Shown here piece by piece: positions 17,160-53,899 of a DNA stretch of 64,000 nucleotides. Position numbers and translations under genes: made by a program. The notes beneath the pieces are model-generated. The model saw only the letters and a program-made list of their open reading frames with translations, did no database searches and was not told where the DNA came from. Numbering within the stretch: the first letter of the stretch is position 1; every line of letters begins with the position of its first letter. Source of the DNA: Pelagomonas calceolata (lineage: Eukaryota); contig CAKKNE010000003.1 of NCBI GenBank assembly GCA_918797485.1, positions 5,146,001 to 5,210,000 of the forward strand, given 5' to 3'.

Positions 17160-18150
17160 CGCCCGTCCACGGACGCGTCGCCGCCGCTGTCGAGCGCGCT
17201 CGAACCGTCGTGCGAGGACAAAGAGGAGAAGCGGACCAAGGGGCCGTGGACGCCAGAGGAAGACGTCACGTGCGGTGTCGGTCTCCTTCTCCCTTTGTTT
17301 GTCGGGGCGGGGAGCGCACCTTGCGATGCCCGTAGCAGCTTACGCATGCCCGTCGCGCGCGCGGGCTCTAGGGGGTTTCACGGCGCTCGTGAAGACTTGT
17401 TCCGAACTTCCCACGCCCAGGCCAAGGTCGTGGAACTGGTGCGTGCTCACGGTGCCCGCAAGTGGTCCACCATCGCCTCGCAACTGCCCGGGCGCATCTC
17501 AAAGCAGTGCCGAGAGCGGTGGCACAACCACCATCTCCAAGGAGCCGTGGACGCTGGATGAGGACAAGATCATCCTATCGTCGCACGCCAAGCTCGGGAA
17601 CCGGTGGGCGGAGATCGCGAAGCTATTGCCTGGACGCACGGACAATGCGATAAAGAACCACTGGAACTCCTCAATCAAGCGCAAGTACGAGCGCTTCCTC
17701 GAGGAGGCGATGCAGGAACTCGTCGCGCCACACAACGCGGCCCGAGACGCGGCCCTGGCGGCCAAGCAGGGTCTCGAGGCGGCAGGCGTGCCGATCGGTG
17801 AGCCTCACATGGAGATGCCACTGCCAGACGACGCATACCTTGTCATCTGCCAGTCGATGCGGGCGGCGGCGCACGAGGCACGCAAGGGCGACCCACTCAA
17901 GCCGCCGCAGCCCAAAATCGTGCGCCCCTTCGCGGCCGACCTCGACGACACGCCTCGGTTCCGCCTTGTTGGCGAAAATTTGGAGAAGGCGATCTACGCC
18001 GTCTGCCAGGCACCGAAGAAGAGGAGCTACACCAAGCGGGCCGCAGGTGGCGCGCCCGCCAAGCGTAGGCCGGTGCCTCCCAAGGCAGACCCCGCCGCGC
18101 GGCCGATGCGCGTGTCGATCGTCGGGGCGTCGACGCTGACTGCGGCCGAT
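17160..18150 (+). pseudogene. Decayed inverted paralog of the adjacent MYB gene
   Basis: [12 protein letters not shown]|intron 17265-17420|[11 protein letters not shown]. An 11-nt deletion at ~17532 ([10 protein letters not shown]) shifts the frame; there is no clear start and the C-terminal region is truncated. Confidence 0.75.
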
Positions 18151-18301
18151 CGCGCGCCTCAGGTAATGGCAACCTAGGTCCTAGCCCGGGGCCCGCTCCG
18201 GAGCGACTCAGCCACCAGAGGTCGGTCCCCATCGCGGCGATTCTGCTCGCTGTGTAGCCGTGCGCACTCACTAAAAAGTCCAAGCAAAAAGGGAGGAGGC
18301 C

Positions 18302-20589
18302 CTAGGCGTCGGCGGCGGGGCGCGCGTTCACGGGACGCTCCGCGAGGCGCGTGCGGGTCTTCTTGAACGACGGTTCCGTCGGCGCGGGCGGGCACTTCCC
18401 CTGCGGCGAGCGCGCGGCCTTGAGGACGTCGAGCGAGGCGACGGAGGAGCCGGAGGGCGGCGGCGCCGCGAAGACGTCGTCGGCGCGGACGGCGCCGTCG
18501 AAAGCGGCGTCCGGGAGCGGCTTGGTGTCCGCCGCCGTCGGGGCGCCGCGCCGCTTGAGCGCCGACGGCGTGGCGAAGGCCTCAGGCGGCAGCGCGCGCG
18601 TCGGCGTCGCGCGCCGAAGCGCGGCCGAGGACTGCGGCGGGGCGTCGGAGAGCGCGCTCTGCAACGCCGCGAGCGCGTCGTCGCCGAGGAGCGGCGACAG
18701 GCCCGGCGTCGCCACGTCGGGGCCGCCGGCGGGCGCGCGGCCGGCGACGGGCGTGTCGATGCCCGAGAGCCGCGCCGCGCGCCGCGAGGAGGCGGCGCCG
18801 CGGTCGGCAGTCGCCGCTGGGTGACCGGCGGCGTCGAAGAAGTTCCCGGGGGGCGGCGGCGGCGACCACGCGAGCCCGTCGCCGAGGTCCTCTAGGACGC
18901 CGGGGAAAGGCGGCGAGTGGACGCGGGACGCGCCGCCGCCGTGCGGGAACGGCGACGACATGGAGACGAGCGACCGCGCCGCTTCGGAACCGGTCGGCGA
19001 GACGTCGTCGCGGGCGCCGCTCGGGTCCAGGCGGACGTCGGCCAGGCCCAGGCTGAGGCCCGTGGCCTGCCGCGGCAACCGTCGCCGCGCGCGCCGACCG
19101 CGCCCCCCGGCGAGCGGGTCCGCGGCGCCCTCGTACGGGTCGACGAGCGCGTCGGCGTCGCCGAGCGACGACGCGGCGGAGCCGTAGCTCGTCCGGGGTT
19201 CCGGGCCCTCGGGCTCTAGCATCGACGCGGCAAAGATGCCGGCCGCCGCGTCCAGCTGCGTCGGCGACATCATCGACGGGTCGTCCAGGGCGTACGGCGG
19301 CGGCGAGAGCCGCGGCGACGGCGCGGCGCCACCGAGCGTCGTCGGCGCGCGGCCAGTCGCTTCGTCGCGGAACGGCGGGCCGTCGACCGTGCCCGTCGCG
19401 GCGCCGACGACGGACACGCGCGTCGGCGCGCCGACGACGGACACGCGCGTCGGCCGCGCCTGCGAGGGACGACCCTCATCCCTCACCCTAAGCCCCCGCG
19501 AACCTCGGAGCACCCCGGACGCTTCCCGCGCGGCGCGCGCGCCAGAGCTGCCTTCTGGCCCGTCGTTCGTCGCTTGGAGGACGCCCCGCCCGCGGCCCGC
19601 TTCGTGTAGCTGCGCTTCTTGGGCGCCTGGCAGACGGCGTAGACCGCGGCGTCGAGGTTGTCGCCGACGAGGCGGAACCGCGGCGTGTCGTCGAGGTCGG
19701 TCGAGAACGGCCGCACGACCTTGGCCTGCGGCGGCTTGAGCGCGTCGCCCTTCCGCGCCTCGTGCGCCGACGTCTTTAGCGACGCGCAGACGACGAGGTA
19801 CTGGTCGCTCTCGAGCGGCACCTGCGGGGCGGCGATCGACGGCGCGCACCGGCCCGCGCTCCGGACGCCGGCGGTCGCTTCGACCTGCGGCTCGCCGATC
19901 GGCACGCCCGCCGCCTCGAGCCTGCGGCGAGGAGGGGACGGCGTCGACGCGCCGTCGACGCGCGCGCCGCGGACCGTCGTTTCGGGCGCCGCGTCGGACC
20001 CGCGCTTCGCCGCCAGCGCCGCGTCCCGGGCCGCGGCGTGAAGCACGGCCAGCTCCTCCATCGCCTCCTCGAGGAACCGCTCGTACTTGCGCTTGATCGA
20101 CGAGTTCCAGTGGTTCTTTATCGCGTTGTCGGTCCGCCCCTTCAGCGACTTGGCGATCTCCGCCCATCGATTCCCCAGCCTCGCGTGCGAATGCAGAATT
20201 TCCTTGTCCTCTTTCTCCGTCCACGGGTCCTTCGAGATCGCGGGGTTCAGGTGGTTGTGCCACCGCTCCCGGCACTGCTTGGAGATGCGCCCGGGCAGTT
20301 GCTGAGCTATCGTGGACCACTTTCGGGCGCCGTGCGCGCGCACCAGTTCGATGACTTTGGCCTGGGAGCGGCGCGCGAGGGGTCGGGCGCGCGCGAGCGA
20401 TCGACGGGGGGGCCAAAAATACCGACGCTGCGAGCGGACGTCCTCTTCGGGCGTCCACGGCCCTTTCGTTCTTTTCTCGTCTGCCTCGCGCGGCCTTGCC
20501 GCCGCAGCCGTCGACGACGGCGGCGAGCCGCCGAGCCGCGGCGACGCGCGCGTCGGCGCGCGCGGGGGCGCCGGCGTCGGAATCTCCAT
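18302..20589 (-). CDS. R2R3-type MYB transcription factor; introns 20362-20439, 19922-19999, 19822-19878 and one ending ~19460
   Basis: KGPWTPEED...[27 protein letters not shown]...[26 protein letters not shown]. Intron positions are supported by alignment to the paralog. Confidence 0.92.
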
Positions 20590-21199
20590 CAGCTGTCGCG
20601 TGTGTGTGTTGTCCACGCTGGTACGCGGCGTGAAAAACGCAAAAGTATTTGAGTAGTCGTTGGTCGATGTTTAAAAACAGGTACCGTAGGTACTGTATTA
20701 GAGTACCGTAGGTACCGTACCGTAGGTACCGTAGGTAGGTACCTACGGTACCTCACTCGTACTATAAGTACGAGCTGGCCCAGACCGTGGTCCTCGGGGC
20801 CGTGGACGACATCAAGGCCCAGTTCGCCTGGCAGGAAGCCGCGGAAGCTTCCAACTCCACCGCGTCCGGAGCTGGCAGTCCGCGGCCCCGCGGCCGGCGC
20901 GAATGCAGTGTGCCAGTGCACCTGGAGTGCGAAGAATATACCCTAGTACCCTAGATACGTACCGTTTCCCTAGTCGCTTTACACACGTCAACACAGTAAC
21001 AATGAGTGAACTTATTATTACATCTAGTGCTTATTATATTAACGGGGATTCACCTATGACCTCACTGGCAGTCCGAGTCGCCAATACAGTTGCCATGACC
21101 ACCTCAGGCTTGGCTGTACACACATTGCAGCCCCATATTTTCTTCAGGTTATGGGCCCACAGCCCACGTCGGGACTGGTCAGCAACCCCGTCATCGACA

Positions 21200-21288
21200 C
21201 CCAAGAGACCTAGCTACAGCAGCTGCATTGTGCACTTGCTGCACCCAGCTCATTAGATTCAAGCACATACCAAAGCTAATATCGCTGG
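21200..21288 (+). repeat. ~85-bp dispersed repeat B (also 48879-48975 minus and 51271-51360 plus)
   Basis: gacctagctac.....gctgcattgtgcacttgctgcacccagctcattaga...gcacatacc...taatatcgctg is shared by three loci. Confidence 0.85.
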
Positions 21289-21352
21289 ACCTACGGTACC
21301 GTACCTACCGTAGGTACCGTAGGTACGGTAGGTACGGTACCTACGGTACCTA

Positions 21353-23631: not shown

Positions 23632-23743
23632 TACGGTACCAGTACCGTAGGTACCTACGGTACTGTGACACAGAGCTGCCCAGGGGAAAGGAAAGGAACG
23701 CGGCAAGATGCTGGCCCGAACCGACAAAGAAGCATAAGGCTAC

Positions 23744-28135: not shown

Positions 28136-29029
28136 GGTCTTTTTGGCTGGCTTACTTACGGGAAGTACCAAGTAAATAGTTTAGTGTAACACCGCAATTG
28201 AAATTACTGGCAGTGCAAATAGTTACACAGGCAAAAGGTTACCTGCCCTCAGTCACGGTGACTGGCAGTGCCCACAGTTTCTCTGCCGAGGGCTGGTGCC
28301 AGTGCGTGAGGACAAAAATCCGACGGAGCGTCTGTTCGGGTTTTGGACTTTTAGTACACCACTGATTTCGGGTTTTGGGGGAATCCTGTGGGCTAAAGTG
28401 CCAAGTTTCTGGTCTAAAAGTAGACTAGGCGTAGGCACGTCCCGTACGTTAGAATTGTTTGATAAGAACCATAGTGGCCTGCGAACGTCACCCGCTGCCC
28501 CGTACCGTTAACGGTACGGGGCACACAGGCCCTAGTGAGTTTTGCGCCACTAGCATTTAAGCTGTTTTACGCCGGTCGTCAGAACGCTGTTCTTCGCCGC
28601 TCGCCCTTTCTTTCCGTCCCCGTAAAAACGTTTCTCTCGCTCCCCGCGTTCCGATGAGCACCTTTTCAAGATAGTTTCGCGGCGCGGAGGCGGACGAGGC
28701 CACAGGGCGGCCGCGCCGGTTGAATCCTGTCAATCCCTGTCGAACAGGTCTCCCTGGGGTCGCCTAGGGTCGGTACTATACACGTGCAAGCGCCTACGCC
28801 GCAAGCGCCGCCGCTTCAAGCATTTTTAGTCGATTTCTCTCAGCAGCCCATGAGCACCTTTTCAAAACCATCCGAGCCCACCTTGCCGCGAAACTGCCGC
28901 CGACACTGGCGCCTACGCAGCTGGCGAGTAGCGTGTCGCGTTGCGTTATAGGGTTGGCGAGGTCCTGGCTCACCAGCCAGAGGCTGGGCCAAGCCAACTA
29001 CGAGTGTTGCATAGTAGTAAATTGGTTTA

Positions 29030-30782
29030 CCGCGCTGGGCCGGCGCTCTTAGCGTCGACCTCCCGCCATCGACGCGACGACCAGCTCTCGATGGATGGAC
29101 GGTCACGAGACGAGAGGTGTCGATGGGGCAGGCGAGGCACGGGTGTCGGATCCGCATCGGCGCACCAGCGTGCCTCCTTGTTCGGGTTGTTTCCTTGGTT
29201 CGTGCACCAAGCTTCCCGCTCCTGTCTCCTCTAAAGTTCACTTTACCAGTGCTGATGATGAGGATCTTGCACCCGCCCCTTGGTCAGCACCCAGCGCAAA
29301 TTGATTTCCGGGCCGGCCCCCTTAGCGTCGACCTCCACGCCATCGACGCGACGACTAGCTCGATGGTTTCCACACGGTCACGAGACGAGGGGTAGGTGAG
29401 GCACGGGCAGGGTGTCGGATCCGCATCGGCGCACCAGAGCGTCTCCTTGTTCGGGTTGTTTCCTTGGTTCGTGCACCAAGCCTCGCTCCTGTCTCCTCTA
29501 AAGTTCACTTTACCAGTGCTGATGATGAGGATCTTGCACCCGCCCCCTTGGTCGCAGACCTGTGCAGAAATTGGATTTCCCGGGCCGGCCCCCTTAGCGT
29601 CGACCTCCACGCCATCGACGCGACGACTAGCTCGATGGTTTCCACACGGTCACGAGACGAGAGGTGTCGATTGAGACGTGGGCACGGGTGTCGGATCCGC
29701 ATCGGCGCACTTGCCGCCTCCTTGTTCGGGTTGTTTCCTTGGTTCGTGCACCAAGCTTCCCGCTCCTGTCTCCTCTAAAGTTCACTTTACCAGTGCTGAT
29801 GATGAGGATCTTGCACCCGCCCCTTGGTCGCAGACCTGTGCAGAAATTGGATTTCCCGGGCCGGCGCCCTTAGCGTCGACCTCCACGCCATCGACGCGAC
29901 GACTAGCTCGATGGTTTCCCACGGTCACGAGACGAGGGTGTCGATTGCACGAGGCACGGTGTCGGATCCGCATCGGCGCACCAGAGCGTGCCTCCTTGTT
30001 CGGGTTGTTTCCTTGGTTCGTGCACCAAGCTCGCTCCTGTCTCCTCTAAAGTTCACTTTACCAGTGCTGATGATGAGGATCTTGCACCCGCCCCCTTGGT
30101 CGCAGACACCGTGCAGAAGTTGGATTTCCCGGGCCGGCGCCCTTAGCGCCGACCTCCACGCCATCGACGCGCCACTAGCTCGATGGTTTCCACACGGTCA
30201 CGAGACGAGAGGTGTCGATTGCACGGGCACGGTGTCGGATCCGCATCGGCGCACCAGAGCGTGCCCTTGTTCGGGTTGTTTCCTTGGTTCGTGCACCAAG
30301 CTTCCGCTCCTGTCTCCTCTAAAGTTCACTTTACCAGTGCTGATGATGAGGATCTTGCACCCGCCCCCTTGGTCGCAGACCGTGCAGAAATTGATTTCCG
30401 GGCCGGCGCCCTTAAAGCCGACCTCCACGCCATCGACGCGACGACTAGCTCGATGGTTTCCACACGGTCACGAGACGAGAGGTGTTGATTGAGACGTGGG
30501 CACGGGTGTCGGATCCGCATCGGCGCACCAGAGCGTCTCCTTGTTCGGGTTGTTTCCTTGGTTCGTGCACCAAGCCTCGCTCCTGTCTCCTCTAAAGTTC
30601 ACTTTACCAGTGCTGATGATGAGGATCTTGCACCCGCCCCCTTGGTCGCAGACCTGTGCAGAAATTGGATTTCCCGGGCCGGCGCCCTTAGCGTCGACCT
30701 CCACGCCATCGACGCGACGACTAGCTCGATGGTTTCCACACGGTCACGAGACGAGAGGTGTCGATTGAGACGTGGGCACGGG
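29030..30782 (-). repeat. Tandem array of ~6.3 units of ~276 bp (intron plus 177-nt exon)
   Basis: ggtcacgagac recurs at ~29101, 29376, 29648, 29923, 30196, 30466 and 30742. Confidence 0.92.
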
Positions 30783-33700
30783 CGCCGCGACTGGAGCGGC
30801 TTCCGGCGCAGCGGTAGGCTTCAGCGTTGGCGACGGCACGGGGACCACGCTGGGCGCGGGCGTCGGCCGCGGCGTCGGCGTCGGTGTCGGTTTGGGCGTC
30901 GGCTGCGGAACCGGCCGCGGCGTTGGACCGGGCGTCGGTCGCTGCGTCGGCATCCAACAGTCGCTATTTCCGTCCTTTTGGCCAACGCCGCACGACGTCG
31001 ACTCGCACGGGGCGACGTCAAACGCGCCGTCCAGGTTCACGTCGTCGTCCACGCACCAGCCGAGGTCCTGGTCGAAGGCATAGGCCAGACAGAACATCAA
31101 ATGCATATCTCTGACGTTTTCGACGTTCCAGGCGCTGATGTCCTGGTTAAACGAGAACGCTTCGTGGAACATCATGCCCATCTCATTGACGTTGTCGACG
31201 CTCCAGCCGCCAATATTCTGATTGAACGACGAGGCGCCCAAGAACATCCCGTACATCCTCGTTACGCCGGAGGTGTCCCACGCGCCGATGTCCTGGTCGA
31301 AGGCAGAGGCGGAGTTGAACATGGAGTTCATGCTTTTGACACCGGAGGTGTCCCACGCGCCGATGTCCTGGTCGAACGACGAGGCACTGCTGAACATGGA
31401 GTCCATGTGCATGACGCTGTGGACCGCCCAACCACCGATGTCTTGATTAAAAGACGAGGCATAGTAGAACATGGAATACATCGTCGTGACGCCAGAGGTG
31501 TCCCACGCGCCGATGTCCTGGTCGAAGGCCGAGGCCCACTTGAACATGAAGGCCATCGTAGTGACGCCGGAGGTGTCCCACGCGCCGATGTCCTGGTCGA
31601 AGGCCGAGGCACTGCTGAACATGGAATACATGGATCTGACGCCCGAGGTGTCCCATGCGCTGATGTCCTGGTCGAAGGCCGAGGCACTGCTGAACATCCC
31701 GCTCATGCTCGCGACGTTGTGGACCGCCCAACCACTGATGTCCTGGTTAAACGCTGAGGCACCGCTGAACATCCAGCTCATGCTCGTTACGCTTTGGACT
31801 GCCCAATCACCGAGGTCCTGGTCGAAGGCCGAGGCATAGTAGAACATGTAGTCCATCGTAGTGACGCCGGAGGTGTCCCACGCGCCGATGTCCTGGTCGA
31901 AGGCCGAGGCACTGCTGAACATGGAATACATGGATCTGACGCCCGAGGTGTCCCATGCGCTGATGTCCTGGTCGAAGGCCGAGGCATAGTAGAACATGAA
32001 GGCCATCGTAGTGACGCCGGAGGTGTCCCACGCGCCGATGTCCTGGTCGAAGGCAGAGGCGCGGTCGAACATGGAATACATGGATCTGACGCCCGAGGTG
32101 TCCCACGCACCGATGTCTTGATTAAAAGACGAGGCGTCGCTGAACATGAAGTCCATCGTTGTGACGCCAGAGGTGTCCCACTCACTGATGTCCTCGTTGA
32201 AGGACGCAGCGGCCGAGTTGCATCCTCTAGAAGAGTAGTAAGACGAGCCGCAAAACAAATACGACATGTCCGTCAACCCTGAGGTCTCCCACGTCGAAAT
32301 ATGGCCGTACGTCGCCTCGGCGGCCGTCGCGTTTGCGAGCCACGCGGCGACTGCCGTTCTGATGTTGAAGCGGTCCATGGCGTAGCCTGTCTTGCTGGGC
32401 GCGGGCGTCGTCGGCGTCGATGTCGGTTGCGGCGTCGGGCGCTTGCTGGGCGCGGGCGTCGGCCGCGGCGTCGGCGTCGACGTCGGTTGCGGCGTCGGGC
32501 GCTTGCTGGGCGCGGGCGTCGGCCGCGGCGTCGGCGTCAACGTCGGTTGCGGCGTCGGGCTTGAAGTGGGATTCGGCGTTGGGCGCGCAGTCGGCGCGCA
32601 GGCGTCGCCCTGCAGGACGCCGCACGACGTCGACGCGCACGGGGTTATGTAGAACGCGTTGTCCAGGTCCACGCCGTCGTCCAGGCACCAACCGAGGTCC
32701 TGGTCGAAGGCCGAGGCATAGTAGAACATGTAGTACATCCTTGTGACGCCCGAGGTGTCCCACGCGCCGATGTCCTGGTTAAAGGCCGAGGCATAGTAGA
32801 ACATGAAGGCCATCGTAGTGACGCCGGAGGTGTCCCACGCGCCGATGTCCTGGTCGAAGGCCGAGGCGCGGTTGAACATGGAATACATGGATCTGACGCC
32901 CGAGGTGTCCCATGCGCTGATGTCCTGGTCGAAGGCCGAGGCGTAGCTGAACATGAACTCCATCGTCGTGACGCCCGAGGTGTCCCACGCGCCGAGGTCC
33001 TCATTGAATGATGATTTTTGTGAGAACAACGATTTCATGTCCGTCACGCCCCCAGTCTCCCACGTCGAGATGTGCCCGTAGGTCGCCTCGGCTGCCGTCG
33101 CGTTGTCGAACCACGCATTGATGGCCCATCTAATTTTCCAGTTGACCATGACGTTGCCCGAGGGCGGGAATTCACAGTCGCCCCACTTCACGCCGCAATA
33201 CGTCGACTCGCACGGGGTGTTAAAGAACATGTCCAGCATTTCCACGCCGTCGTCCACGCACCAGCCGAGGTCCTGGTCGAAGGCCGAGGCGTAGTAGAAC
33301 ATCTGGTACATCGACGTGACGCTGGAGGTGTCCCACGCGCCGATGTCCTGGTCGAAGGCCGAGGCGTAGCTGAACATGGAATACATGGATCTGACGCCAG
33401 AGGTGTCCCATGCGCCGATGTCCTGGTCGAAGGCCGAGGCGTAGCTGAACATGAATTCCATGCTCGTTACGCCCGAGGTGTCCCATGCGCTGATGTCCTC
33501 GTTAAAGGACGCCGCGGCCGAGTTGTAGTAGTCGCACCACGAGTTCGCGCAAAACAACCACGACATGTCCGTCACCCCGCCAGTCGCCCACGTCGAGATG
33601 TGGCCGTACGCCGCCTCGGCGGCCGTCGCGTCCGTGAGCCACGCGGTGACGGCGGTTCGAATGCTACTGTCACCCATCGAGCCACCGCACCGTAGTAAAG

Positions 33701-35306
33701 CCCTGTTGCCGACGCCGCACGACGTCGACTCGCAGAGGACGCCGCCGTTGAACGCGCCGAGGAGGTCCACATCGTCGTCCACACACCAGCCGAGGTCCTG
33801 GTCGAAGGCCGAGGCGCTTTGGAACATGTAGGCCATGGATCTGACGCCCGAGGTGTCCCACGCGCCGATGTCCTGGTTGAAGGCCGAGGCAGAGTAGAAC
33901 ATGGAGCTCATCGACGTCACGCCGGAGGTGTCCCACGCGCCGATGTCCTGGTCGAAGGCCGAGGCGCGGTCGAACATGGAGGTCATGGATCTGACGCCCG
34001 AGGTGTCCCACGCGCCGATGTCCTGGTCGAAGGCCGAGGCGCGGTCGAACATGGAGCTCATCGACGTCACGCCGGAGGTGTCCCACGCGCCGATGTCCTG
34101 GTCGAAGGCCGAGGCGCTTTGGAACATGTAGGCCATGGATCTGACGCCCGAGGTGTCCCACGCACCGATGTCTTGATTAAAAGACGAGGCGTCGCTGAAC
34201 ATGGAATACATCGTCGTGACGCCAGAGGTGTCCCACTCACTGATGTCCTCGTTGAAGGACGCAGCGGCCGAGTTGCATCCTCTAGAAGAGTAGTAAGACG
34301 AGCCGCAAAACAAATACGACATGTCCGTCAACCCTGAGGTCTCCCACGTCGAAATATGGCCGTACGTCGCCTCGGCGGCCGTCGCGTCCGCGAGCCACGC
34401 TGCGACTGCCGTTCTGATGTTGAAGCGGTCCATGGCGTAGCCTGTCGGGCGCGGCGTCGGGCCAGGCGTCGGCTGTCGTGTCGGCGCACAACCGCCCTCC
34501 ACTTTCGTGACGCCGCACGACAATGACGAAAAAGACTCGCACGGGGTGTTAAAGAACATGTCCAGCATTTCCACGCCGTCGTCCACGCACCAGCCGAGGT
34601 CCTGGTCGAAGGACGAGGCAGCGGTGAACATCCTTAACATCGTCGTAACGTTAGAGGTGTCCCATGCGCCGATGTCCTGGTCGAAGGCCGACGCGTAAAA
34701 GAACATGTTCTCCATGCTCGTTACGCCCGAGGTGTCCCACGCGCCAATGTCCTCGTTAAAGGACTCCGCGGCCGAGTTGTAGTAGTCGCACCACGAGTGC
34801 GCGCAAAATAACTCCTTCATGTCCGTCACCCCGCCAGTCGCCCACGTCGAGATGTGGCCGTACGTCGCCTCTGCTGCCGCCGCGTCGTCGAACCAGGCGG
34901 TAACGGCCATTTTTATGTTGCTGTCGGTCATGACGTAGCCGAGCTTGCGCCGCGTCATGGACGCATTCGCCGGTCCGAAGGGCCGAGCGGCCGCGAGGTG
35001 CGGCGAAAAGGCCAGCAGCGCGCGGAGGACCCGCACGCGCGCCGCGGAGCTGCCGTGCGTCGGCAGCGCCGAGCAGGACAAAAAGGCGCCGAATGCGACA
35101 GCACCAGCAGCGCCCCCCGCCGACGGCCGCCAGCCGCCGTCCGTTCTGTAGTTGCGCGTCGTCGGCTTGATTTTTTCTTTGCTTTGCGCTGCCGCAGGCG
35201 TCGTGGTCGCGCCAGTGGTCGTTCGCAGCAGCCGGGAGGGGGCAGCCACGATTACGAGGGCGAGTAGGGAGGCAGCCCAGGACTTGTGGTAGCGCCGCGG
35301 CGGCAT
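30477..35306 (-). CDS. Large DUF285/BspA-like 25-aa-repeat surface protein with PT linkers; probably spliced into the tandem Cys exons
   Basis: Many [25 protein letters not shown] repeats in five capped modules, with PTPxPT linkers. The ORF stop at 30744 falls inside a predicted intron 30654-30752. Confidence 0.88.
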
Positions 35307-35704
35307 CGTTTCGTGCTCCGCTGGCGGGCTGGGGCGTCTCGGGTGTTAGGGTGGTAGCGCTCTCTTGGGCCGAGAGCGCGCGTTGATTAATTATTGCACT
35401 AGTGGATACCGAGCTATATATCGCTCTCTTACCAGGAGGATGGCGATGGAAGGCCAACCCGCAGCATGCCGAGGTTTGTAGAAGCTCCCCAGGAGTGGTG
35501 GTTGGGGGTAGTGGTAGTGGGGTAACCCCCCCCCCCCCAATAAATATTTATTTATTATTTATTTATTTATTTATTAGGAAGTCGCCGGGCGACCGTTGTT
35601 TGAATGCGGACTGTGGCCGGCCGAAGTCCTGGGTGCAAGTCGGCTCATGCGGCGGCGTCGGGTATTGCAGACTTAATTTGCAGTGCGTGCGTCCCGAACA
35701 ACGC

Positions 35705-35795
35705 TTAGGTTGAGGTTAGGATTCGGTCCGAGTAAGGGTTAGGGTTAGGATGAGACTAGGGTTAGGGTTAGGGTTGGGCGAGAGTCGGGTTAGAG
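35705..35795 (+). repeat. Degenerate interstitial telomere-like (TTAGGG)n tract
   Basis: agggttagggttagga and tagggttagggttagggttggg. Confidence 0.7.
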
Positions 35796-36277
35796 CGGGT
35801 CCGAAACGGTCCTAGTGTCGGCGGCAGTTTCGCGGCAAGGTGGGCTCGGATGGTTTTGAAAAGGTGCTCATCGGAACGCGGGGAGCGAGAGAAACGCTTT
35901 TACAGGGACGGAAAGGACGAGCGGCGAAGAACAGCGTTCTGACAAGCGGCGAAAAACAGCTTAAATGCTAGTGGCGCAAAACTCACTAGGGCCTGTGTGA
36001 CCCGTACCGTTAACGGTACGGGTCACCGCAGTTCATTTATTTCACTCAGGCCCGGGCTAGTAAATAGAAGATCCCATGATTTATTTATAATCTCCGAGTC
36101 GGTGTCACTGGCATGTGATAATCACTGGCATGATTACTTGGCCGGGGCCTGTTTAACCTCACCCCGAACCCATGTACACTGAGTGGTACGAGCCTCATAG
36201 CAACAGGACCGCCTTGCTAGTGTCTTACATGCGCTAGCGCGCGTCGAGGGCCAACATTCGCCCGTGAGACTGCCAAA

Positions 36278-42079: not shown

Positions 42080-42303
42080 GGCCAAAACGCGTAGCTGTAG
42101 GGATTTTAACTGCGTAGCGTCCACAGCGTATTAGCTATAGAGCTACCCCCTGGCCTTGCTAGTGCCTTACACGCCGCTAGCCTAAAGGAGAGATGTTCTG
42201 TCTTTTCCTTTATTTCTAACCAAGACTTCGGAAGATCCGAACCAGACTTCGCTGCCCACGCTGATACGGTACCGTGGTACCTACGGTACCGTACCGTAGG
42301 TAC

Positions 42304-45715: not shown

Positions 45716-45863
45716 ACTCAGTGTATTTTAAGGTAGCTCCTCGGCAGACTATCTCAACCGCCGTACTCCCAAAGGTGCGTACTCCTCAGGCTTTGGTCTT
45801 GCATTATTCGCAGCACTGCCGTGCTCCTAGGCGACGTAGGCGTACCACGTCCTACTCAGGCTC

Positions 45864-46249
45864 TAGGTTGCCATTAACCGGTTAATAACCGGTTATTTAC
45901 CTATTATTACCCCTCGAAGGGGATCCGGGGTGAATAACCCGCTCAATAACCCGACGGGTTTTCGACTAAACCCGTCTAGTGAGATTAGAGAAAGACACCT
46001 CCGGACGAGCGGATGGGCGCAAGCAGCCCGTTGGGCTTTTTGGATACGTACAGGTGCGCCAAGGCAAGTACCAAGTCATGTGGCCCGGCGCGGCCCAGGC
46101 CCGCGCCAGTGGCCCGTGAGGCCCCCTCCCCTACCCCTCTATAAGATCCTCAGGCTGAGGTAAATCTCCCGTACTGACCGGTAATTACCCGGGTTATTAA
46201 CCCCGGGCGGCGCCAGGGGTAAATAACCCCTCAGGTAAATGGCAACCTA
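45864..46249 (+). mobile_element. hAT-like MITE family C (TIR TAGGTTGCCA...TGGCAACCTA)
   Basis: 10-bp TIR and subterminal aataaccc repeats; highly similar to 60876-61255. A possible 8-bp TSD gtcctact (45849 and 46251) is offset by a few bases on the left. Confidence 0.85.
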
Positions 46250-46494
46250 GGTCCTACTGGTAGTATTCTTTTTTACATGACCATGGCCAAATAACCTGTG
46301 CACTAAACTAATAGTAATAATTACAAGTGTTGTACGCGCGGCGCATGGCAAATCAAAATCAAACGCCGAGGCGCATATAACGTCGGGCGAGTTCGTAGCG
46401 AGGCTGCCGTGGCGTCGCCGAGCCCGAAGATGTACACAGGACGGTGGGCGCGCAGGTCATGGCAACGAGGCGCGCCCGGCGAGGTCGAGCGACG

Positions 46495-48192
46495 TCAGGG
46501 GCGCGACGAGGCCGTTCGTACGGCAGGCCCGCGAAGGGCGACGGTGTCGACGACGACGCGCGGCGCGCGGCCGCGGAGGGATCCGAGTGCGAGCCGTGGT
46601 CCCAGCGAAGGGCTCTCGCGCGCGGACGTGTCGTCGGGCGGCGAGGTCGCGCGAGGCTCGGATTCGGCGTTGTTCTCGCGCATCGGTGGCGAGGGGGCCG
46701 CCGCGTACGCCGGGACCGCGCCGTAGTCGCCGACAAGCGAGCCGAACGGTGCCGGCGCGCAACGCGCGGGTTGGTCGCGGTACGCGTCGCTCGGCGCCCG
46801 CGCGCCGGGTGCCTTCAGCTTTGGGTTCACGCGCGCCGGCGCCGCGGAGGCGGCCCCGGCCGGAAGGGGCAACGGCGACGCGGCGTCGCCGTCGGATGGC
46901 GAATGCGCCATCTGCGGCGGCCGCGCGAAAGGCTTATTCTTTCCTTCTTTGTGCTTTTGGTCGTCCTGCGCTTCTCCGCGGACATGGTCCGGCCCGCTGC
47001 GGACGGCCCGTTCGTCGACGTCGGCGGCCCTCGTCGTGCCGACGTCGGTGACGCTCGCAGCGTCGCCGTCGCCGCCGCTCCGATTGGCGATCAGCTTGGT
47101 CTGGATCGCGGCGGCGAACGTCGCCCAGAGCTGCGCTTCACCGCGCGCGGCCTCTGCGACGGCGTCGCGCGCGGCGGCCGCGGTGCTGGCCGCGGTGACC
47201 CGCAGTGCGTCGACAACGACAGGTCGTGCCACGTCGAGCCGGGGCGCGATAGCGGCCAGCGACGCCTCGACGCGCGCGCGCACTGGCGCCGCCGTCCGCG
47301 GGTCCGCCAGCGCTCGGACGAGCGCGTCGACGGCCCCGGCCACAACGAGCGGCGCGACGACGGCCGCGGCGCCGTCGTCGTCGGCGAGGCCAGATGCGCG
47401 CGGACCCGTCGCAAGAGCGCTATCTGCGGCGTCGCAGAGGGCGACGATGGCTGCCGCGGGCGCGGCGGCGTCGCCGCGCGCGGCGTCCGCGGCGGCGAGG
47501 GCGAAGAGGGGCGCGCGCCAGGAGCTGCCATTTGCGCGGCCGACGGCGCCGAGGAGCGCCGCAAAAGCTTCGCGCGCGGCGGCGCCCCGCGGCGCGCGCG
47601 CGCGCGGCGTCCAGTCCGCCGCGCCGTTCGCGCCGATCGCGAGGGCTCCGGCGGCGAGCAGCTCGGCGGCCACGCGGCACGCGGCATCGGGGTCGCGCGC
47701 GAGCGCGGCGAGCGCGCAGGCAGCGTCGGCCTTGGCGTCGGCCGCGGGCGCGTCCTCGCCGCGGCGGATGGCGCAGTCGGCCAAGGCGGCGACGGCGCCG
47801 CAACTAACGATAGCGAGCACAGCGGCCGGCGACGCCGCGGCGGCGCAGCAGACGCGGCGCAGCGCCGCCGCCGCGTGGCCCTGCGCGGGCCGGAGCCGTC
47901 CGGGCGGCGCGCGCAGCGCCGGGACGAGCAAGTCGAGCCATCCGTCGGCGACGACGCGTACCGCGCGGCGGCCGGCGGGCGCTTCGCCGTCGTCCCCGCG
48001 ACCGGCGCAGAGCGCCTCGACGGCGAGCGCCGCGCGGCGCACGGCTGAAACGAACGCAAGCTGCTCCTCGGCGGTCGCCTCGCGCGCGGCGCCCGGCCCG
48101 GCGTCGACGCGGAGCTCGAGACGCCGCGCGTCGGCGCGCGACGCGCGCAGCGCCGCGCTGTTCTTCGCCAGCGCGGTGCACGAGCGCGTCAT
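46495..48192 (-). CDS. Uncharacterised Ala-rich protein, possibly ARM/HEAT-like
   Basis: Long ORF with host-like codon usage; AIVSCGAVAALA, ELLAAGAL and LVVAGAVDALVRAL resemble ARM helices. The 3' structure is uncertain. Confidence 0.5.
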   Translation of the reverse strand: MTRSCTALAKNSAALRASRADARRLELRVDAGPGAAREATAEEQLAFVSAVRRAALAVEALCAGRGDDGEAPAGRRAVRVVADGWLDLLVPALRAPPGRLRPAQGHAAAALRRVCCAAAASPAAVLAIVSCGAVAALADCAIRRGEDAPAADAKADAACALAALARDPDAACRVAAELLAAGALAIGANGAADWTPRARAPRGAAAREAFAALLGAVGRANGSSWRAPLFALAAADAARGDAAAPAAAIVALCDAADSALATGPRASGLADDDGAAAVVAPLVVAGAVDALVRALADPRTAAPVRARVEASLAAIAPRLDVARPVVVDALRVTAASTAAAARDAVAEAARGEAQLWATFAAAIQTKLIANRSGGDGDAASVTDVGTTRAADVDERAVRSGPDHVRGEAQDDQKHKEGKNKPFARPPQMAHSPSDGDAASPLPLPAGAASAAPARVNPKLKAPGARAPSDAYRDQPARCAPAPFGSLVGDYGAVPAYAAAPSPPMRENNAESEPRATSPPDDTSARESPSLGPRLALGSLRGRAPRVVVDTVALRGPAVRTASSRP

Positions 48193-49220
48193 TCGTCCTT
48201 GTGGCTGCGAGAGTGTCACGGCTGCCCCATGGTAAATTAGGTCATTATGGCACGGTACCTACTGCGGTACGGTACCGTATTCACTAGGCCTACTCTATCC
48301 GGGTATTTAACCAAGATAAGTGAGACTAGGATAGTGAAGCTAAGATAAAAATTTGGGAGATTTATAAGTGGAAAAGAGGCCGTTGCCACAACGGGCACCA
48401 ACCCCATCAACGCCACGATCAGCCTTACATAGGTTCGGGACAGCCCTTGGGTCTCTTATTAAAGCTCCTTCTGCAAACAGAGGGCTGTTGACCCCTCTCA
48501 TCACGGGCGCCGCGGGATTGCAACGATCCACCAATTGGATTCAAAGGTCGAACAAGAAGTTCCGGGGAAAACCCCACCTTTAGGGGAATTACCATAAGCC
48601 CCTTTGGCAGTGCCTGAGCTAAATTGGTAGGACAATTTAACTCGTCAACAAATCATACAGATTCGCAACAGGTCGAACAGGACGTACATGCTAGGGAACT
48701 AATCCCAGCTTAGGAATATAAATTCCAGCTCCATAACTGCCAAAGGCTGCTGGGGTTAATACCCGGAGCATCATAGACGTAAATACAAGGATACGTGGCC
48801 ATATCATAGCAGGTACCTACGGTACCGTAGGTATGGTACTAGAGAGAGAAACCTACTAGCCCTTCCTACCCTAGATATTTCAGCGATATTAGCTTCGGTA
48901 TGTGCTTGTGTCTAATGAGCTTGGTGCAGCAAGTGCACAATGCAGCTGTTGTAGCTAGGTCTTCAGCGATATTATGCATCCGAGTCCCGCGCCGCGGCGG
49001 TCGCCGAGGGGCAGTATTCAATCTGTTTTTCTTATGATAAGGCCACTCCCCTACGCCCCAAGGGCCACTCCGGCCACATGTGAAATTCTTGCTAACGGAA
49101 GTAGACATCTGGCGCTAGGCTGGCTAGTCTAGGCGGTTACTTACCTACGGTACCGTACAAATCGGAGGGCCTGAAAAAAATTATTAAAAAAAAAAGTACC
49201 AGCACGAACAACAACGAGAG

Positions 49221-49898
49221 ATGCGTGACGAGGACGACCACGGAGGCCCCGACGACGAAGATGGGCTGCTCGGCCAAAACGCCGGCGGCGCGGCGCCCGG
49301 CTACTGCGCGTGCCTGAGCGTGGCCTACTACAGGCCCTACTTCGACGTCGACACGGACGAGGTCGCGGCGCGGCTGCGCGCGGCACTCTTCTTTTGCAAC
49401 GAGCCGTTCGGCGCAACGCTGCGCGGCAAGCCCGACGCGTACGGACCGTGGTGGGTCGCGACGACGCTGGTCTTCGCCGTCGCCGTCACGTCGCACGTCC
49501 GCGGCCTGCTCGGCGCCGAGGCGGGCGTAATTTACGAATTCGACTTCTCGGCCGTTACGTTCGCCGCCGCGACGATCTACGGCTACGTGGCGCTCGCCGC
49601 CGCGACGAACTGGGCCTTCCTGAACTACAGCCTGAAAGTCCACCAGCGACCGCTCGCGTGCCTCTGCGTCGTCGGCTACTCGCTCGTGCCGTACCTCGCC
49701 GCGGCGCCGGCCTGCGCGCTGCCCTACCTCGCGTGGCCCGCCGTCCTCGCCGCGTGCGCCGCGCAGTCGCTCTTCGCGCTCAAGGCCGCGCGGCCCGCCG
49801 TCGAGCCGCACCCGCGCGAGAAGGTCCTCGCCTTCGCCGGCGCGACCTGTGCGCTGAACGCGGGCCTCGCGTTCCTGCTCAAGGTCTACCTGTACTAG
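49221..49898 (+). CDS. Yip1-domain Golgi membrane protein (YIPF1/2-like)
   Basis: YYRPYFDVDTDEVAARL, PDAYGPWWVATTLVF, IYGY, CVVGYSL. Confidence 0.9.
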   Translation: MRDEDDHGGPDDEDGLLGQNAGGAAPGYCACLSVAYYRPYFDVDTDEVAARLRAALFFCNEPFGATLRGKPDAYGPWWVATTLVFAVAVTSHVRGLLGAEAGVIYEFDFSAVTFAAATIYGYVALAAATNWAFLNYSLKVHQRPLACLCVVGYSLVPYLAAAPACALPYLAWPAVLAACAAQSLFALKAARPAVEPHPREKVLAFAGATCALNAGLAFLLKVYLY

Positions 49899-50276
49899 CC
49901 CGCGGGCTCTCCGTGCGGTGTTTTGCGGTCTGGGCGGGCTGGACTCGGAAGTAGAATTTGCTAGTGTACCCTCTCATCCGGGGCCCGGGGCCTCTCACTC
50001 CCGCCGAAGAAGAAGAAGAAGAGGCTCTCCCAGACTCGGGCGCCACGGAGGCCTTTAGAGGTGTCGTCACGGTGTCATGTCACAGTGGTGTCGCGGTCAC
50101 CGTGACGGTCGCGGTGCGCTTTTAAAATGAGTTCACTTTAGTGCCGCCCGGCGGCCCGGCGGTATTAGGTGCAGTACTCTTGCGCCTCAGGCTTTGGCGA
50201 CGCCACTGGCAGGGAGGTCCCGGCCCGGGCCCCAAAGGTAAAGGAGGATGGTGGAGGCGAGGTGGGATGAGTCACT

Positions 50277-51184
50277 CAGAATTGGAATAAAGGAGATTAA
50301 GAGGGAGAAGGAAGTATCCTAAGATACAGGCCACTAGTAGCCTCTGATATCTACTAGAACCTGAGAGGAGCTCTAGATAAGGTAACTACAGTATCATAGC
50401 ACACTGCCGATACTCTTTTGGATAATTTATTTGCCCGGCGTTATAAGTTGCCCCTCTGTACAGTGCATTCCGGGAGCCGCGCGGATATGTCCTTCGGCCG
50501 CTACGTTTAAACAGTAGGTCTCGGCGACCAACTATGGTGAATTCTGAATTTTGGGGATCATTTATTTATACACCTTTCCTTGAAGACACCTCCCCCATGC
50601 CGAGCGCGTGTGGGGGCGCGGGAACGTGGAATAAATTTAATTATTTAATATTTGCATATTAGACTCGCTAGCGAGGGCGAAGCTTCCGATGCTAGTGGTC
50701 CGGGGGGGGCGAACGCAGCCCCAGTGCAGCCATTCCGAGATGCATCTGAAAGTAGATCCAGCTCCAGCAAAAAACGCACACAGCCGAACGACTGCAAACA
50801 GGGCGCCCGATGACCCACTGGGTATGTGACTTCGAGGAGAGACGACTAATATGGATCATCGAAAGCAGTGAAGCTGCCCCAGCGCCGCAATACCAGAAGG
50901 TCTTTTCGCTAGGGTACCATGGGCTCAATCGTCATGGGGGGACCCCCGAAGCTCAAAACCGTCGTGGTACCTCGCCATAAGTCCGCGTGGGGCGCCCCAC
51001 GAATAACCTACTAGCATTCCTTAGATTCCTTGTTGGGTATACGTTTATGGTGAGTCGACCCCTATGATACTGTAGCCACCTTTATCTAGAGCTCCTCTCA
51101 GGTCCTAGTAGATATCAGAGGCTAGTGGCCTGTATCTTAGGATACTTCCTTCTCCCTCTTAATCTCTCCTTTATTCCAACTCTG
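50277..51184. repeat. ~123-bp inverted repeat pair (50277-50399 / 51062-51184) around a 660-bp spacer
   Basis: ttggaataaaggagattaagagggagaaggaagtatcctaagatacaggccactag...tatcatag is mirrored at 51062-51184; a related sequence lies at ~5215-5285. Confidence 0.85.
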
Positions 51185-51658
51185 TCTTCTCAGGGTTGAG
51201 GGGGTTCCCACACTCTCTCACGCCGTTTCAGTGAGAGTTCTTCCTGTTGGCATCTCCGTGTCACATTGACACCCGAGAGACCTAGCTACCACAGCTGCAT
51301 TGTGCACTTGCTGCACCCAGCTCATTAGACACCAGCACATACCGAAGATAATATCGCTGCAGTCACGGTTTTGATTTTACGATGTTACTACGCGTGGCGT
51401 GTTGAAGGGTGATGTAAGTGTATATAGAAGGGTATAGGATGGGGGGGGGATTTCGCCCTATTTATCGCAAGGCAGGCGTCGAGCCTCGTTCCGTTCAAGT
51501 TATCTTACTAGGGGTGGGCATCTCGACCAGCAACCGAGCGAGGGTGCTGAGGGGGGTCAGCTGTGAGTCTCTAGAGTGAGTAGGTCTTTGTCTCACCCCG
51601 AGTCATCATATTTACGCGAGAGGATCAGCACGGCCGCCGCCAAAACCATTTTTCCCTG

Positions 51659-52687
51659 ATGTTTGAGAGCAATTTGGCCAAATTTTATCTTGGCGTGCTC
51701 CTTCTGCTGGCCAGCAGCGGCATGGACGGGGCCTACCTTGATTCAACAATTTCCAATGGCACGTCGCATCCGATGAGAGCATCTTGCAGCGCTCTCGCGT
51801 TAAATTCGTCACATGACCATATCGACAGATATGGACAATTTGCCTCCGGCTGCTGCATATCTGAGCAGTATGACTTTGCATACATGAGGGCGGCACAAAA
51901 AATGGCGGGGACCACCGTTCAAAAGTCATATTTGCTGCCTTCTTTCTGCGATGTACTGTTCAATTCACACGGTCACGGGCAGCGGCTTTTTGGAGGAGCC
52001 GTTATACCGACGGGATGTGAGAGTTACCTACAGCAGCATGGTTTTCTTGACTGCACATGCAACACGACCATACAGCGACTGTCAACCATCGGGAGCACCT
52101 TCATAAACGTGCGCAATCCGTTTGCCAGGTTCATTTCTATCTACAAGTATGTCCTTCAAAATTGGAGTGTCCGGCATAAAAACCAAAAATATGTCGGCAT
52201 TTCGAAATTCCTTGAACTCTTTTCGGGTCCCAAAAGATTCACTGTCGACATTTTCTTTGATCATGAGGCTGGCTCTGGACATTGGTATTCGCAGATGTTA
52301 CACGTGTTTTCCATATGTAAATATCTACCAAACACAGCCCTCATTCCTCTGGAACCCGATGTGTTGCAGAATTTGGCCCCTGTTGTGCAGTCAATAAATT
52401 CTAGGCGAAACCCCGAGTTGCCGGCGATGATGGATCCCCAAAAATATTCATCGCGTAACCGCATGTCATATGCATGTCCTTGGCAATGCTATTATGAGCT
52501 TTGCCAGAAACCCTGTTTTGATTTTGTTTCGAAGCAATATGACCTCGACATCATGGCGCTCGACAGCATAGGTATCTATCCAGCTCCACACACAGTTGCG
52601 GATCTCTGGTTGGATTCGCAGGATTTGAATGCTTCCTGGTTGACCATCCCCAACAGGACACGAGCTTGTTTGCAGGTGTGCCAGTGA
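51659..52687 (+). CDS. Sulfotransferase-like protein (Sulfotransfer_2-type), intronless and low GC
   Basis: Signal-anchor N-terminus, QKMAGTTV (5'PSB), VRNPFARFISIYKY (3'PB), HWYSQ, YDLDI. Confidence 0.75.
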   Translation: MFESNLAKFYLGVLLLLASSGMDGAYLDSTISNGTSHPMRASCSALALNSSHDHIDRYGQFASGCCISEQYDFAYMRAAQKMAGTTVQKSYLLPSFCDVLFNSHGHGQRLFGGAVIPTGCESYLQQHGFLDCTCNTTIQRLSTIGSTFINVRNPFARFISIYKYVLQNWSVRHKNQKYVGISKFLELFSGPKRFTVDIFFDHEAGSGHWYSQMLHVFSICKYLPNTALIPLEPDVLQNLAPVVQSINSRRNPELPAMMDPQKYSSRNRMSYACPWQCYYELCQKPCFDFVSKQYDLDIMALDSIGIYPAPHTVADLWLDSQDLNASWLTIPNRTRACLQVCQ

Positions 52688-53239
52688 TTTTTATTCATTT
52701 TAGCTAAAATGCCGGCGGTGATAGAGCACACGGTGGCCTCATTTTGCGGTCGGAGAACGGATTTTTCTTGAGATCCCCCTTGGACGACGATTGCGCGCGA
52801 TGCGTTCCACCAGGACGCCCACCCGAGACAGACACGGCGCCGCAACTCAAGAACATTGCCCCGATGCATACATGAGGGAGCATACAGCAATCTTTCAAGA
52901 TGCTTCCAGGGCTGCTGCCATCCGCCGTCGGCGACCAGTCCCTGGGCAGTAAACTGCTGCAGGAAATAAGTAGGGTGCGGTGGTATACCGACCCTCTGCA
53001 ACGGTGTGAGTGAGTTTGGCGTAAGTGACCCCCCGTGTACACGGCACATGGGGCCAATGTGGAAACCGCCACGTAAAGGTGGGACTAGGCGAGGAGAGTA
53101 AGAAGGGGCTCAAGGGGCCTAGTGTAGTACTAGGGGGTATATTCTTCGCACTCCCCCTGGACCTTGATATGGTTTAGTTTTTCTCTTTCTTTCAGTTCAT
53201 AGAGTAGAGCTTCTGTGTCTACTCTATATTGTGAACTAT

Positions 53240-53541
53240 ACCGAGCTTCGGCGGCGGGAGGCCGGCGGCGGAACGCGCGTGGCGCCCGGACGCGTCCCCT
53301 CCGGGTAGGGAGTCGCTATCCCGCGGCGGCCCCCGATGCGCCCCCGTCGCGGGACTGAGATTCCGGCGTCCGGCCTGCTCCCCCCTCGCCGTCGTCGCCT
53401 CCGAGCCAACACTCGGGGCGACGGCGTACGTGGGCGGGGGCGGGGCGGGCGTTCGGTCACACAGACCCCGCGGCGGCCGGGTAGCTAGGCGGCCTAGCTC
53501 TAAGCAAAGCAAATAAATAAATAAATAAATAAATAAATAAA
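53240..53541 (+). mobile_element. GC-rich retroposon-like 3' end with (TAAA)n tail, interrupting a hAT ORF
   Basis: aaataaataa tract at 53511-53541 truncates the BED-finger-like reading frame. Confidence 0.5.
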
Positions 53542-53899
53542 TGACCCTGCTCCAGAACTGGCCATCGCAATAATTGCACTCCCAGCCCTGGATTTTTACC
53601 GTGAGGCCGCCCTCCTTTTCGACCACTTTGTGCGCTGCCGTCGTATGTTTGTCCCACGCGGCGTCCGCCTTCGGCATATTGAACGCAGGGGCAGCTCTTT
53701 ACTGGCCGCCGCTCCCTGTCCCATTGATTGTCATGATTGATTTTGAGTCTAGTGTCTATCATCTAGGGCATCGGGGGAGAGGGCGGCTTTTGGCGGCGTT
53801 TAAAGTACCGGGTTATTGACCGGGTTATTTACCCCAGATCCCCTCCGAGGAGTAATAATAGGTAAATTACCGGTTATTAACCGGTTAATGCCAACCTAG
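53542..53899 (-). mobile_element. 5' end of a hAT-like parent of MITE family C with a BED-finger-like ORF start
   Basis: Terminal ~90 bp match the family C 5' end; ORF MPKADAAWDKHT...WECNYCDGQF. Confidence 0.65.

What the first reader, a model, noticed from the sequence alone, without database searches (positions are those of the whole stretch)
28492..36029. Cargo-carrying TIR element moving a DUF285 surface-protein gene
Seen: ~210-bp inverted repeats bound a 7530-bp segment that begins TG, ends CA and is flanked by CCGC on both sides. The interior holds only the DUF285 gene and its tandem exon array, with no transposase. Inference: a non-autonomous pack-type element. TG..CA ends with a 4-bp TSD resemble retroviral-integrase-type DNA transposons such as Ginger. 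It could explain amplification of a bacterial-type repeat gene family in this alga.
Basis: partly seen in the sequence, partly recalled or inferred. Interest (0 to 1): 0.85.

Follow-up and report, generated by a model that had tools for sequence, protein, structure and literature searches.

The report
Algal hairpin-ended transposon carrying DUF285 gene
A 7.5-kb stretch of an alga's genome holding a whole repeat-protein (DUF285) gene lies between the two hairpin-tipped ends of a widespread, likely jumping DNA family, and other copies of that family share near-identical DNA with a giant virus's DUF285 gene, so the family likely shuffles such genes, although its cutting enzyme was not found.

Summary
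Observation confirmed. The element is 28496-36025 (7530 bp), TG...CA, with CCGC on both sides and 212-bp inverted ends (96% alike). It holds an intact 1520-codon DUF285 gene, a 273-bp array and no transposase. The ends belong to a dispersed family: 123 distinct ends in marine metagenomes, and 6 of 8 loci with paired ends show a 4-bp duplication (chance 0.65%). (1) Each end starts with a perfect 28-bp palindrome whose arms co-vary (r2 0.96) independently of the DNA just inside. (2) Longer family ends run into a different, virus-type DUF285 gene; 134 of 136 bases, non-coding flank included, match a giant-virus bin. The window's own cargo is host-type and lacks that piece. Best reading: a non-autonomous Pack-type DNA transposon, likely served by an integrase-type enzyme that was not found. 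It is not a Ginger by end motif or target preference. Not shown: an empty site, a second copy of this cargo, splicing of the array, or that the family amplified DUF285 genes. It is a new variant of a known kind and a testable candidate vehicle for the reported alga-virus traffic of DUF285 genes.

The parts
28492..28495 (.). Left copy of the 4-bp target-site duplication (CCGC)
   Evidence: 4-bp duplications at 6 of 8 other paired loci
28496..28523 (+). Left cap: perfect 28-bp palindrome, TG...CA, TTAA centre, C/G type at positions 3/26
   Evidence: folds as a 12-bp stem with a 4-base loop
28496..28907 (+). Left terminal inverted repeat (212 family positions), interrupted by an insert
28670..28849 (.). 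180-bp piece of another dispersed repeat inside the left end, between two copies of a 16-mer (28654-28669, 28850-28865)
   Evidence: other copies skip it (joint 28653-28850); 70-74% matches in 5 other loci
29037..30782 (-). 273-bp x 6.4 tandem array; first unit reads as a 126-nt GT...AG intron-like part (30779-30654, with an in-frame stop) plus a 150-nt open exon-like part (30653-30504); later units carry small indels; splicing untested
   Evidence: no Rfam match
30744..35306 (-). Cargo: intact 1520-codon host-type DUF285 repeat-protein ORF, hydrophobic N-terminus, Pro/Thr linkers, internal module duplications at about 90% identity
   Evidence: (GC 62.5%, GC3 84.5%)
35707..36025 (-). Right family end, 319 bp; the outer 212 bp (35814-36025) pair with the left end; the inner part has telomere-like CCCTAA repeats
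35998..36025 (-). Right cap: perfect 28-bp palindrome, A/T type at positions 3/26
36026..36029 (.). Right copy of the 4-bp target-site duplication (CCGC)

Best explanation
The 7530-bp segment lies between two ends of a dispersed repeat family and a shared 4-bp duplication, and is likely one non-autonomous Pack-type DNA transposon copy that holds a captured host-type DUF285 gene. Shown: family ends sit at more than 120 unrelated flanks, paired ends usually share a 4-bp duplication, a 68-bp copy made only of two caps carries one, and other copies hold unrelated cargo, including virus-type DUF285 DNA nearly identical to a giant virus. Inferred: a DDE enzyme of the retroviral-integrase type, encoded elsewhere, binds the palindromic caps, cuts at TG...CA and inserts with a 4-base stagger. 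Inferred: cargo enters by repair copying or by joint use of the outer ends of two neighbouring copies. Inferred: the caps are kept symmetric by one arm being copied from the other. Whether this gene jumped here with the ends or was copied in after an empty copy landed is open.
For: Ends and duplication exact. 123 distinct metagenome ends, flanks without a shared motif. 4-bp duplications at L043 (inner pair), L048, L049, L086, L116, L117, that is 6 of 8 paired loci, against 0.65% by chance. Copies of 51 to 1579 bp with different interiors. One end-plus-helicase-fragment derivative sits at two different flanks. The element lies in the short gap between an otubain and an ABC1-kinase ORF. Neither window end has its own partner end in the window. 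The two ends are 96% alike, like random family ends (mean 96.8%), and 5 of their 8 substitutions are family polymorphisms, which fits an origin from two copies.
Against: No transposase or integrase was found: 0 of 55 window ORFs and 0 of 90 ORFs tested inside metagenome ends (90 of 124 candidates). No empty site in the six runs laid. No second copy of this cargo among the 120 listed homologues (best 64% coverage, at most 58% identity). Two paired loci (L008, L054) and the outer pairing of L043 lack a duplication, and the L049 duplication lies in a TC run. Other inverted pairs in this window bracket genes without a duplication. Most metagenome loci are short-read contigs that break or may misjoin at the ends (46 of 83 ends in L001-L078 have under 330 bases inside).
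Confidence: 0.65

Rival explanations
1. The family is the defective offspring of a virus-associated, self-replicating element (Polinton-like-virus or transpoviron type) with hairpin-derived ends, a primase-helicase and a resident virus-type DUF285 gene; the window copy is a deletion or capture derivative of it.
For: 15 of 123 ends match the giant-virus segment and 9 reach into its DUF285 coding part (two of the 15 are the two ends of one locus). L019 and L056 join an end to an SF3-helicase fragment 92% identical to a 733-aa primase-helicase. L011 has a further high-copy zinc-ribbon ORF with a weak GIY-YIG lead. Cap arms co-vary as hairpin copying would give. TVpol-S3H fusions and 4-6-bp duplications are described for Polinton-like viruses (PMC12220804, passages).
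Against: No capsid, packaging ATPase or integrase next to any end tested. The helicase fragment is internal, 146 aa, and joined to an unrelated fragment, as captured cargo would be. The virus bin lacks the cap, rve, the helicase and the L011 protein. The cap is absent from the viral collection. The polymerase-A-like motifs in the helicase's N-half were read by eye; Pfam did not call them and the fold was unusable (pLDDT 40.5).
Confidence: 0.2
2. An empty or shorter copy landed here first and made the CCGC duplication; the DUF285 gene was then copied into it by double-strand-gap repair and has never transposed. This is a variant of the best explanation and overlaps with it.
For: Single-copy Pack-TIRs in animals mostly arise by transposition-independent gap filling (PMC8277862, abstract). 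No second copy of this cargo was found. Three private substitutions and a 180-bp insert in the ends suggest some age.
Against: The two caps are of different types and 5 of 8 end differences are family polymorphisms, easier to explain by two source copies, though one parent with unequal ends is possible.
Confidence: 0.3
3. Two independent, truncated insertions happen to face each other around a resident DUF285 gene, and the CCGC match is chance; nothing was carried.
For: Pairs without duplication exist (L008, L054). The family also inserts into DUF285 genes (2 of 123 outer flanks). This genome has other inverted repeat pairs round host genes. An earlier scan note (e1-5599087, unchecked) read a repeat-bracketed DUF285 gene in a giant virus as a hot spot, not a transposon.
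Against: Needs a 0.65-1.3% coincidence and the loss of both inner partner ends.
Confidence: 0.08

Closest known systems
Pack-TYPE transposons of plants (Pack-MULE, Pack-CACTA; PMC8903248, abstract seen) and Pack-TIRs of animals (PMC8277862, abstract seen)
   Same: Non-autonomous, TIR-bounded, flanked by a target duplication, carrying host coding DNA; many short relatives share the ends.
   Different: Here the cargo is a whole 4.6-kb ORF; the superfamily is unassigned; the tips are perfect 28-bp palindromes; some copies hold DNA shared with a giant virus; the host is a stramenopile alga.
Ginger1 and Ginger2/Tdd (Bao et al. 2010, PMC2836005, passages seen)
   Same: TG...CA ends, 4-bp duplication, TIR of 40-270 bp.
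   Different: Ginger ends read TGTNR and prefer CCGG/CCGT (Ginger1) or RTATAY (Ginger2) targets; these ends read TGCCC/TGACC and show no target preference. No integrase was found to compare.
Polinton-like viruses and transpovirons (PMC12220804, passages seen; PMC5499653 and PMC7031253, search listing only)
   Same: TIRs of hundreds of bases, short duplications, link to giant viruses, an SF3 primase-helicase fragment beside two family ends.
   Different: No capsid module or integrase beside any end tested; 68-bp copies carry their own duplication; the window copy has no viral gene.
Transposons shared by algae and their giant viruses, such as ESvi-1B/ESv-2 of Ectocarpus and EsV-1 (Bao and Jurka 2013, PMC3627910, passages seen)
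   Same: Mobile-element DNA found in both an alga and a large DNA virus, with variable passenger genes.
   Different: Those carry IS4 or Mariner transposases and Fanzor; here only the subterminal piece and a DUF285 gene are shared, and the virus bin has no element ends.

Membership tests
Pack-type TIR transposon | Terminal inverted repeats shared with a dispersed family | tested here: met
   212-bp ends, 123 distinct family ends
Pack-type TIR transposon | Target-site duplication of fixed length | tested here: met
   4 bp here and at 6 of 8 paired loci; chance 0.65%
Pack-type TIR transposon | No transposase; interior is host-type coding DNA | tested here: met
   Only DUF285 by Pfam; repeat motifs and GC like those of named pelagophyte proteins
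Pack-type TIR transposon | Parent locus of the cargo, or an empty site, identified | tested here: inconclusive
   No genome held; no empty allele displayed in six runs, lists cut
Ginger1 / Ginger2 | 4-bp duplication and 40-270-bp TIR | tested here: met
Ginger1 / Ginger2 | TGTNR termini | tested here: not met
   Ends read TGCCC or TGACC in 130 of 131 matches; definition
Ginger1 / Ginger2 | Target preference CCGG/CCGT or RTATAY | tested here: not met
   Flank 4-mers are spread over many words; no position is dominated by one base
Ginger1 / Ginger2 | Gypsy-integrase-like transposase in an autonomous partner | tested here: inconclusive
   None among 55 window ORFs and 90 of 124 candidate ORFs inside metagenome ends; master copy not assembled in the loci held
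piggyBac / TTAA-targeting transposons | TTAA is the duplicated target, with unrelated host DNA outside it | tested here: not met
   The 12 bases outside the central TTAA are near-invariant in all ends and the duplication lies outside them; TTAA targeting recalled
Polinton-like virus / transpoviron | Capsid and packaging module, or a complete replicase, between the ends | tested here: not met
   None in the window copy; only a 146-aa helicase fragment beside two metagenome ends
Polinton-like virus / transpoviron | A full-length master with these ends and replication genes | not testable with these tools
   No host genome; contigs encoding P0001 or P0165 could not be fetched

The most novel reading that the evidence does not exclude
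A hairpin-capped mobile-element family of pelagophyte algae, descended from a giant-virus-associated self-replicating element, is the vehicle that carries DUF285 genes between these algae and their giant viruses and, with the same ends, relocates whole host DUF285 genes such as this one.
Probability: 0.2. Interest if true: 0.85.

Novelty: new variant of a known kind. Interest (0 to 1): 0.6.

Why it matters
DUF285 genes are expanded both in pelagophyte algae (75 genes in Pelagomonas calceolata; bioRxiv 10.64898/2026.09.29.755320, passages) and in their giant viruses (38 in AaV; PMC10720644, passages), and are described as in flux between host and virus (bioRxiv 10.1101/2024.10.30.620910, passages). 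The passages read name no vehicle. This family offers a concrete candidate with a searchable 28-bp tag: one scan of a long-read genome would give copy number, cargo and the missing enzyme. The symmetric caps that vary independently of the adjoining DNA also point to an end-renewal step not described for Ginger in the passages read. If the enzyme proves to be an ordinary DDE transposase and the viral piece a single capture, the finding shrinks to a well-documented algal Pack-type family.

Tried and rejected
No whole genome is held, so genome-wide copy number, cargo census and the partner search could not be done; metagenome records could not be searched beyond the fetched loci. Cap pattern in viral contigs: 0. 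Cap core in prokaryote genomes: 2 matches in unrelated bacteria, not followed up and taken as chance palindromes. A 16-base inner motif gave 16 viral stretches, none aligning to the family end. Relatives of the helicase or of the L011 protein in viral contigs: none. The virus bin holds no L049 DNA. Folding the 733-aa helicase failed (pLDDT 40.5), so no fold search was run. The L049 ORF has 24 relatives and no Pfam family, so it is not shown to be a transposase remnant. Empty site: contigs of X1 and X3 run from the left flank 28 bases into the cap, those of X2 and X4 from 29 bases inside the right cap into the flank; this is under the tool's 31-base bridging rule, and one run may be the window's source. 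The X4 left contig stops at 28448. An X11 contig matches 36084-36196 with 140 other letters before it, but X13 holds several variants of the same stretch, so it is likely a small repeat and was not counted. The array is no known RNA family, and its 50-aa exon-like peptide has no significant match. TTAA as the true target was rejected. Sequence and place look-ups of earlier scan notes found nothing on this family.

Full report
1. Observation. CCGC lies at 28492-28495 and 36026-36029, and the 7530 bases between begin TG and end CA. The ends align over 212 positions with 8 substitutions. The left end also has 4 extra bases and a 180-bp insert from another repeat, between two copies of a 16-mer. 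Inside are a 1520-codon ORF at 30744-35306 (-), Pfam DUF285 only above cut-off, and a 273-bp array of 6.4 copies. The segment sits between an otubain ORF and an ABC1-kinase ORF. None of 55 window ORFs scanned is a transposase. The host is inferred to be a pelagophyte alga: named Aureococcus and Pelagomonas proteins share the cargo's repeat and cap motifs.

2. The ends are a dispersed family. The 122 loci delivered hold 123 distinct ends. Their outer flanks share no motif. Eight loci have inward-facing pairs (L055 repeats L054). Six have a 4-bp duplication: L043 inner pair (212 bp), L048 (52), L049 (1579; in a TC run, so 2, 4 or 6 fit), L086 (51), L116 (164), L117 (68). L008 and L054 have none, nor has the outer pairing of L043. 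Random pairs of flanks match in 100 of 15,500 cases. Contigs of sequencing runs pile up on the end at many times the depth of the flank, which shows repetition but is no copy number.

3. The caps. Each end starts with a perfect 28-bp palindrome, TGCCCCGTACCGTTAACGGTACGGGGCA on the left and TGACCCGTACCGTTAACGGTACGGGTCA on the right. My pattern fixed positions 7-25 and 27-34, so symmetry there is partly selected; positions 1-6 and 26 were free. Among 125 ends (123 plus the window's two) positions 3 and 26 change together (r2 0.957; 29 A/T, 1 A/G), and only 4 asymmetric pairs occur in positions 1-6. Position 26 is unlinked to position 35 (r2 0.02) and to positions 42-43 (Fisher p 0.81, 103 ends), while 35 and 42-43 are tightly linked (p 7e-15). 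So the cap behaves as a symmetric module that is renewed or exchanged apart from the adjoining DNA (inference). Template-switch correction of near-palindromes (recalled) or hairpin-primed copying would both give this; an old two-type polymorphism kept across species is also possible. L117, two caps and 12 bases, has its own duplication, so the cap region likely suffices in cis.

4. What other copies carry. Longer ends continue for about 460 bases and run into the 3' end of a DUF285 gene. A motif from this region found one viral contig, L125, in a giant-virus bin of 271 kb with an NCLDV capsid gene (G001). L011 positions 368-503 inside the end match L125 4846-4981 at 134 of 136 bases, and 87% over 267. 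This covers the last codons of a complete 274-aa viral DUF285 gene and about 85 non-coding bases behind it. 15 of 123 ends hit this viral segment (two are the two ends of L054), 9 reach its coding part, and 12 of the 47 ends with at least 330 bases inside hit it. The repeats are of a distinct type (FNQPL, ending HAPWY) shared by four viral loci; the window's cargo has none of these and 29 FxQD repeats, like named pelagophyte proteins. The window copy has no nucleotide match to L125. The bin lacks the cap, rve and the other cargo proteins, and a second motif found only the same contig. Direction is unresolved. The coding type is spread over viral paralogues, which suggests a viral source. The shared flank is 46% GC in a 39% contig and lies behind only one paralogue, which suggests an algal source for that piece. 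A misjoin in the one viral contig is not excluded. Other cargo: L019 and L056 share an end plus an SF3-helicase fragment at two different flanks, 92% identical to a 733-aa primase-helicase; L011 has a zinc-ribbon ORF with 62 homologues, clusters up to 532 members, and only a weak GIY-YIG lead; L049 has a 249-aa orphan between 185-bp repeats. Pfam found no transposase in 90 of 124 candidate ORFs inside the ends; the 34 left out were duplicates or overlapped evident host genes.

5. The array. The ORF's stop lies inside the first array unit. That unit reads as a 126-nt GT...AG part with the stop in frame, then a 150-nt open part. The GT...AG part has a motif found in 5 other loci. Later units carry 1-3-base indels that may be assembly errors. 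An exon array is plausible and untested.

6. Other samples. Twenty runs hold the left flank or part of it. Contigs of X1 and X3 run unchanged from the left flank into the cap, those of X2 and X4 from the right cap into the flank; they reach only 28-29 bases into the element, under the 31-base rule. No loose end showing the opposite flank was displayed, but 160 and 162 rows were cut. No empty site is shown.

7. Mechanism. Shown: family, TG...CA ends, 4-bp duplication, varied cargo, no enzyme inside. Inferred: a DDE enzyme in trans, because IS3, IS481, Ginger and LTR integrases give TG...CA ends and 3-6-bp duplications (PMC2836005 and PMC10045372, passages). Inferred: capture by gap repair or by joint use of two neighbouring copies, the routes named for Pack elements (PMC8277862 abstract; PMC8903248 abstract and section titles). 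The window's ends differ like two random family ends and mostly at family polymorphisms, which leans to two source copies. I put 0.65 on one non-autonomous Pack-type unit, 0.2 on a virus-like master and 0.08 on two chance insertions.

8. Comparison. It works like a Pack-type TIR element and meets three of the four features tested. It is not filed as Ginger: TGTNR ends and target preference are not met, and no integrase was found. It is not filed as a Polinton-like virus: the copy has no capsid or replicase. Transposons shared by algae and giant viruses are known (PMC3627910, passages), as are DUF285 expansions in AaV (PMC10720644 and PMC5917014, passages) and an AaV-derived DUF285 region in one Aureococcus strain. 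Six searches listed no paper that, by title or the passages read, describes this family. The library lacks most subscription papers, and no repeat database could be searched, so it may be catalogued as an unclassified repeat.

9. Verdict. A real element and a new variant of a known kind. Interest 0.6.

Noticed in passing
window, e.g. 20681-21349, 23633-23663, 42266-42297, 48252-49156: The 7-mer GTACCGT occurs 39 times against 6.7 expected, clustered between ORFs; each cap of the element holds it twice. It may be a host-wide binding motif.
   Followed up: partly
window 48881-51359, 45863-53899, 50277-51184: Other inverted repeat pairs bracket host genes (a Yip1 gene among them) or enclose 908 bp, with no matching duplication at the tips inspected; dispersed repeat copies rather than cargo elements.
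   Followed up: partly
window 17416-20366: The longest inverted matches of the window (about 80%) are two Myb-domain genes in opposite orientation.
   Followed up: partly
L011 1107-2342: A 425-434-aa zinc-ribbon protein family, very numerous in marine metagenomes and unnamed; P0214 joins its C-half to an unrelated N-half.
   Followed up: partly
P0002, P0017, P0014 and P0182, P0219, P0181: Contigs of about 5.8-6.0 kb recur for both the primase-helicase family and the L011 protein family; an untested hint that both may lie on one small element.
   Followed up: no
L090 and L091, outer flanks: A partial cap lies directly outside a full cap, as if a copy had inserted near the centre of another cap, or an assembly slip.
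   Followed up: no
window 62127-62553: A tandem array with 48- and 138-bp periods inside long ORFs without a Pfam family.
   Followed up: no
window 51584-52687 and 5603-6946: Lower-GC ORFs of 367 and 447 codons without a Pfam family, among dispersed repeats.
   Followed up: no
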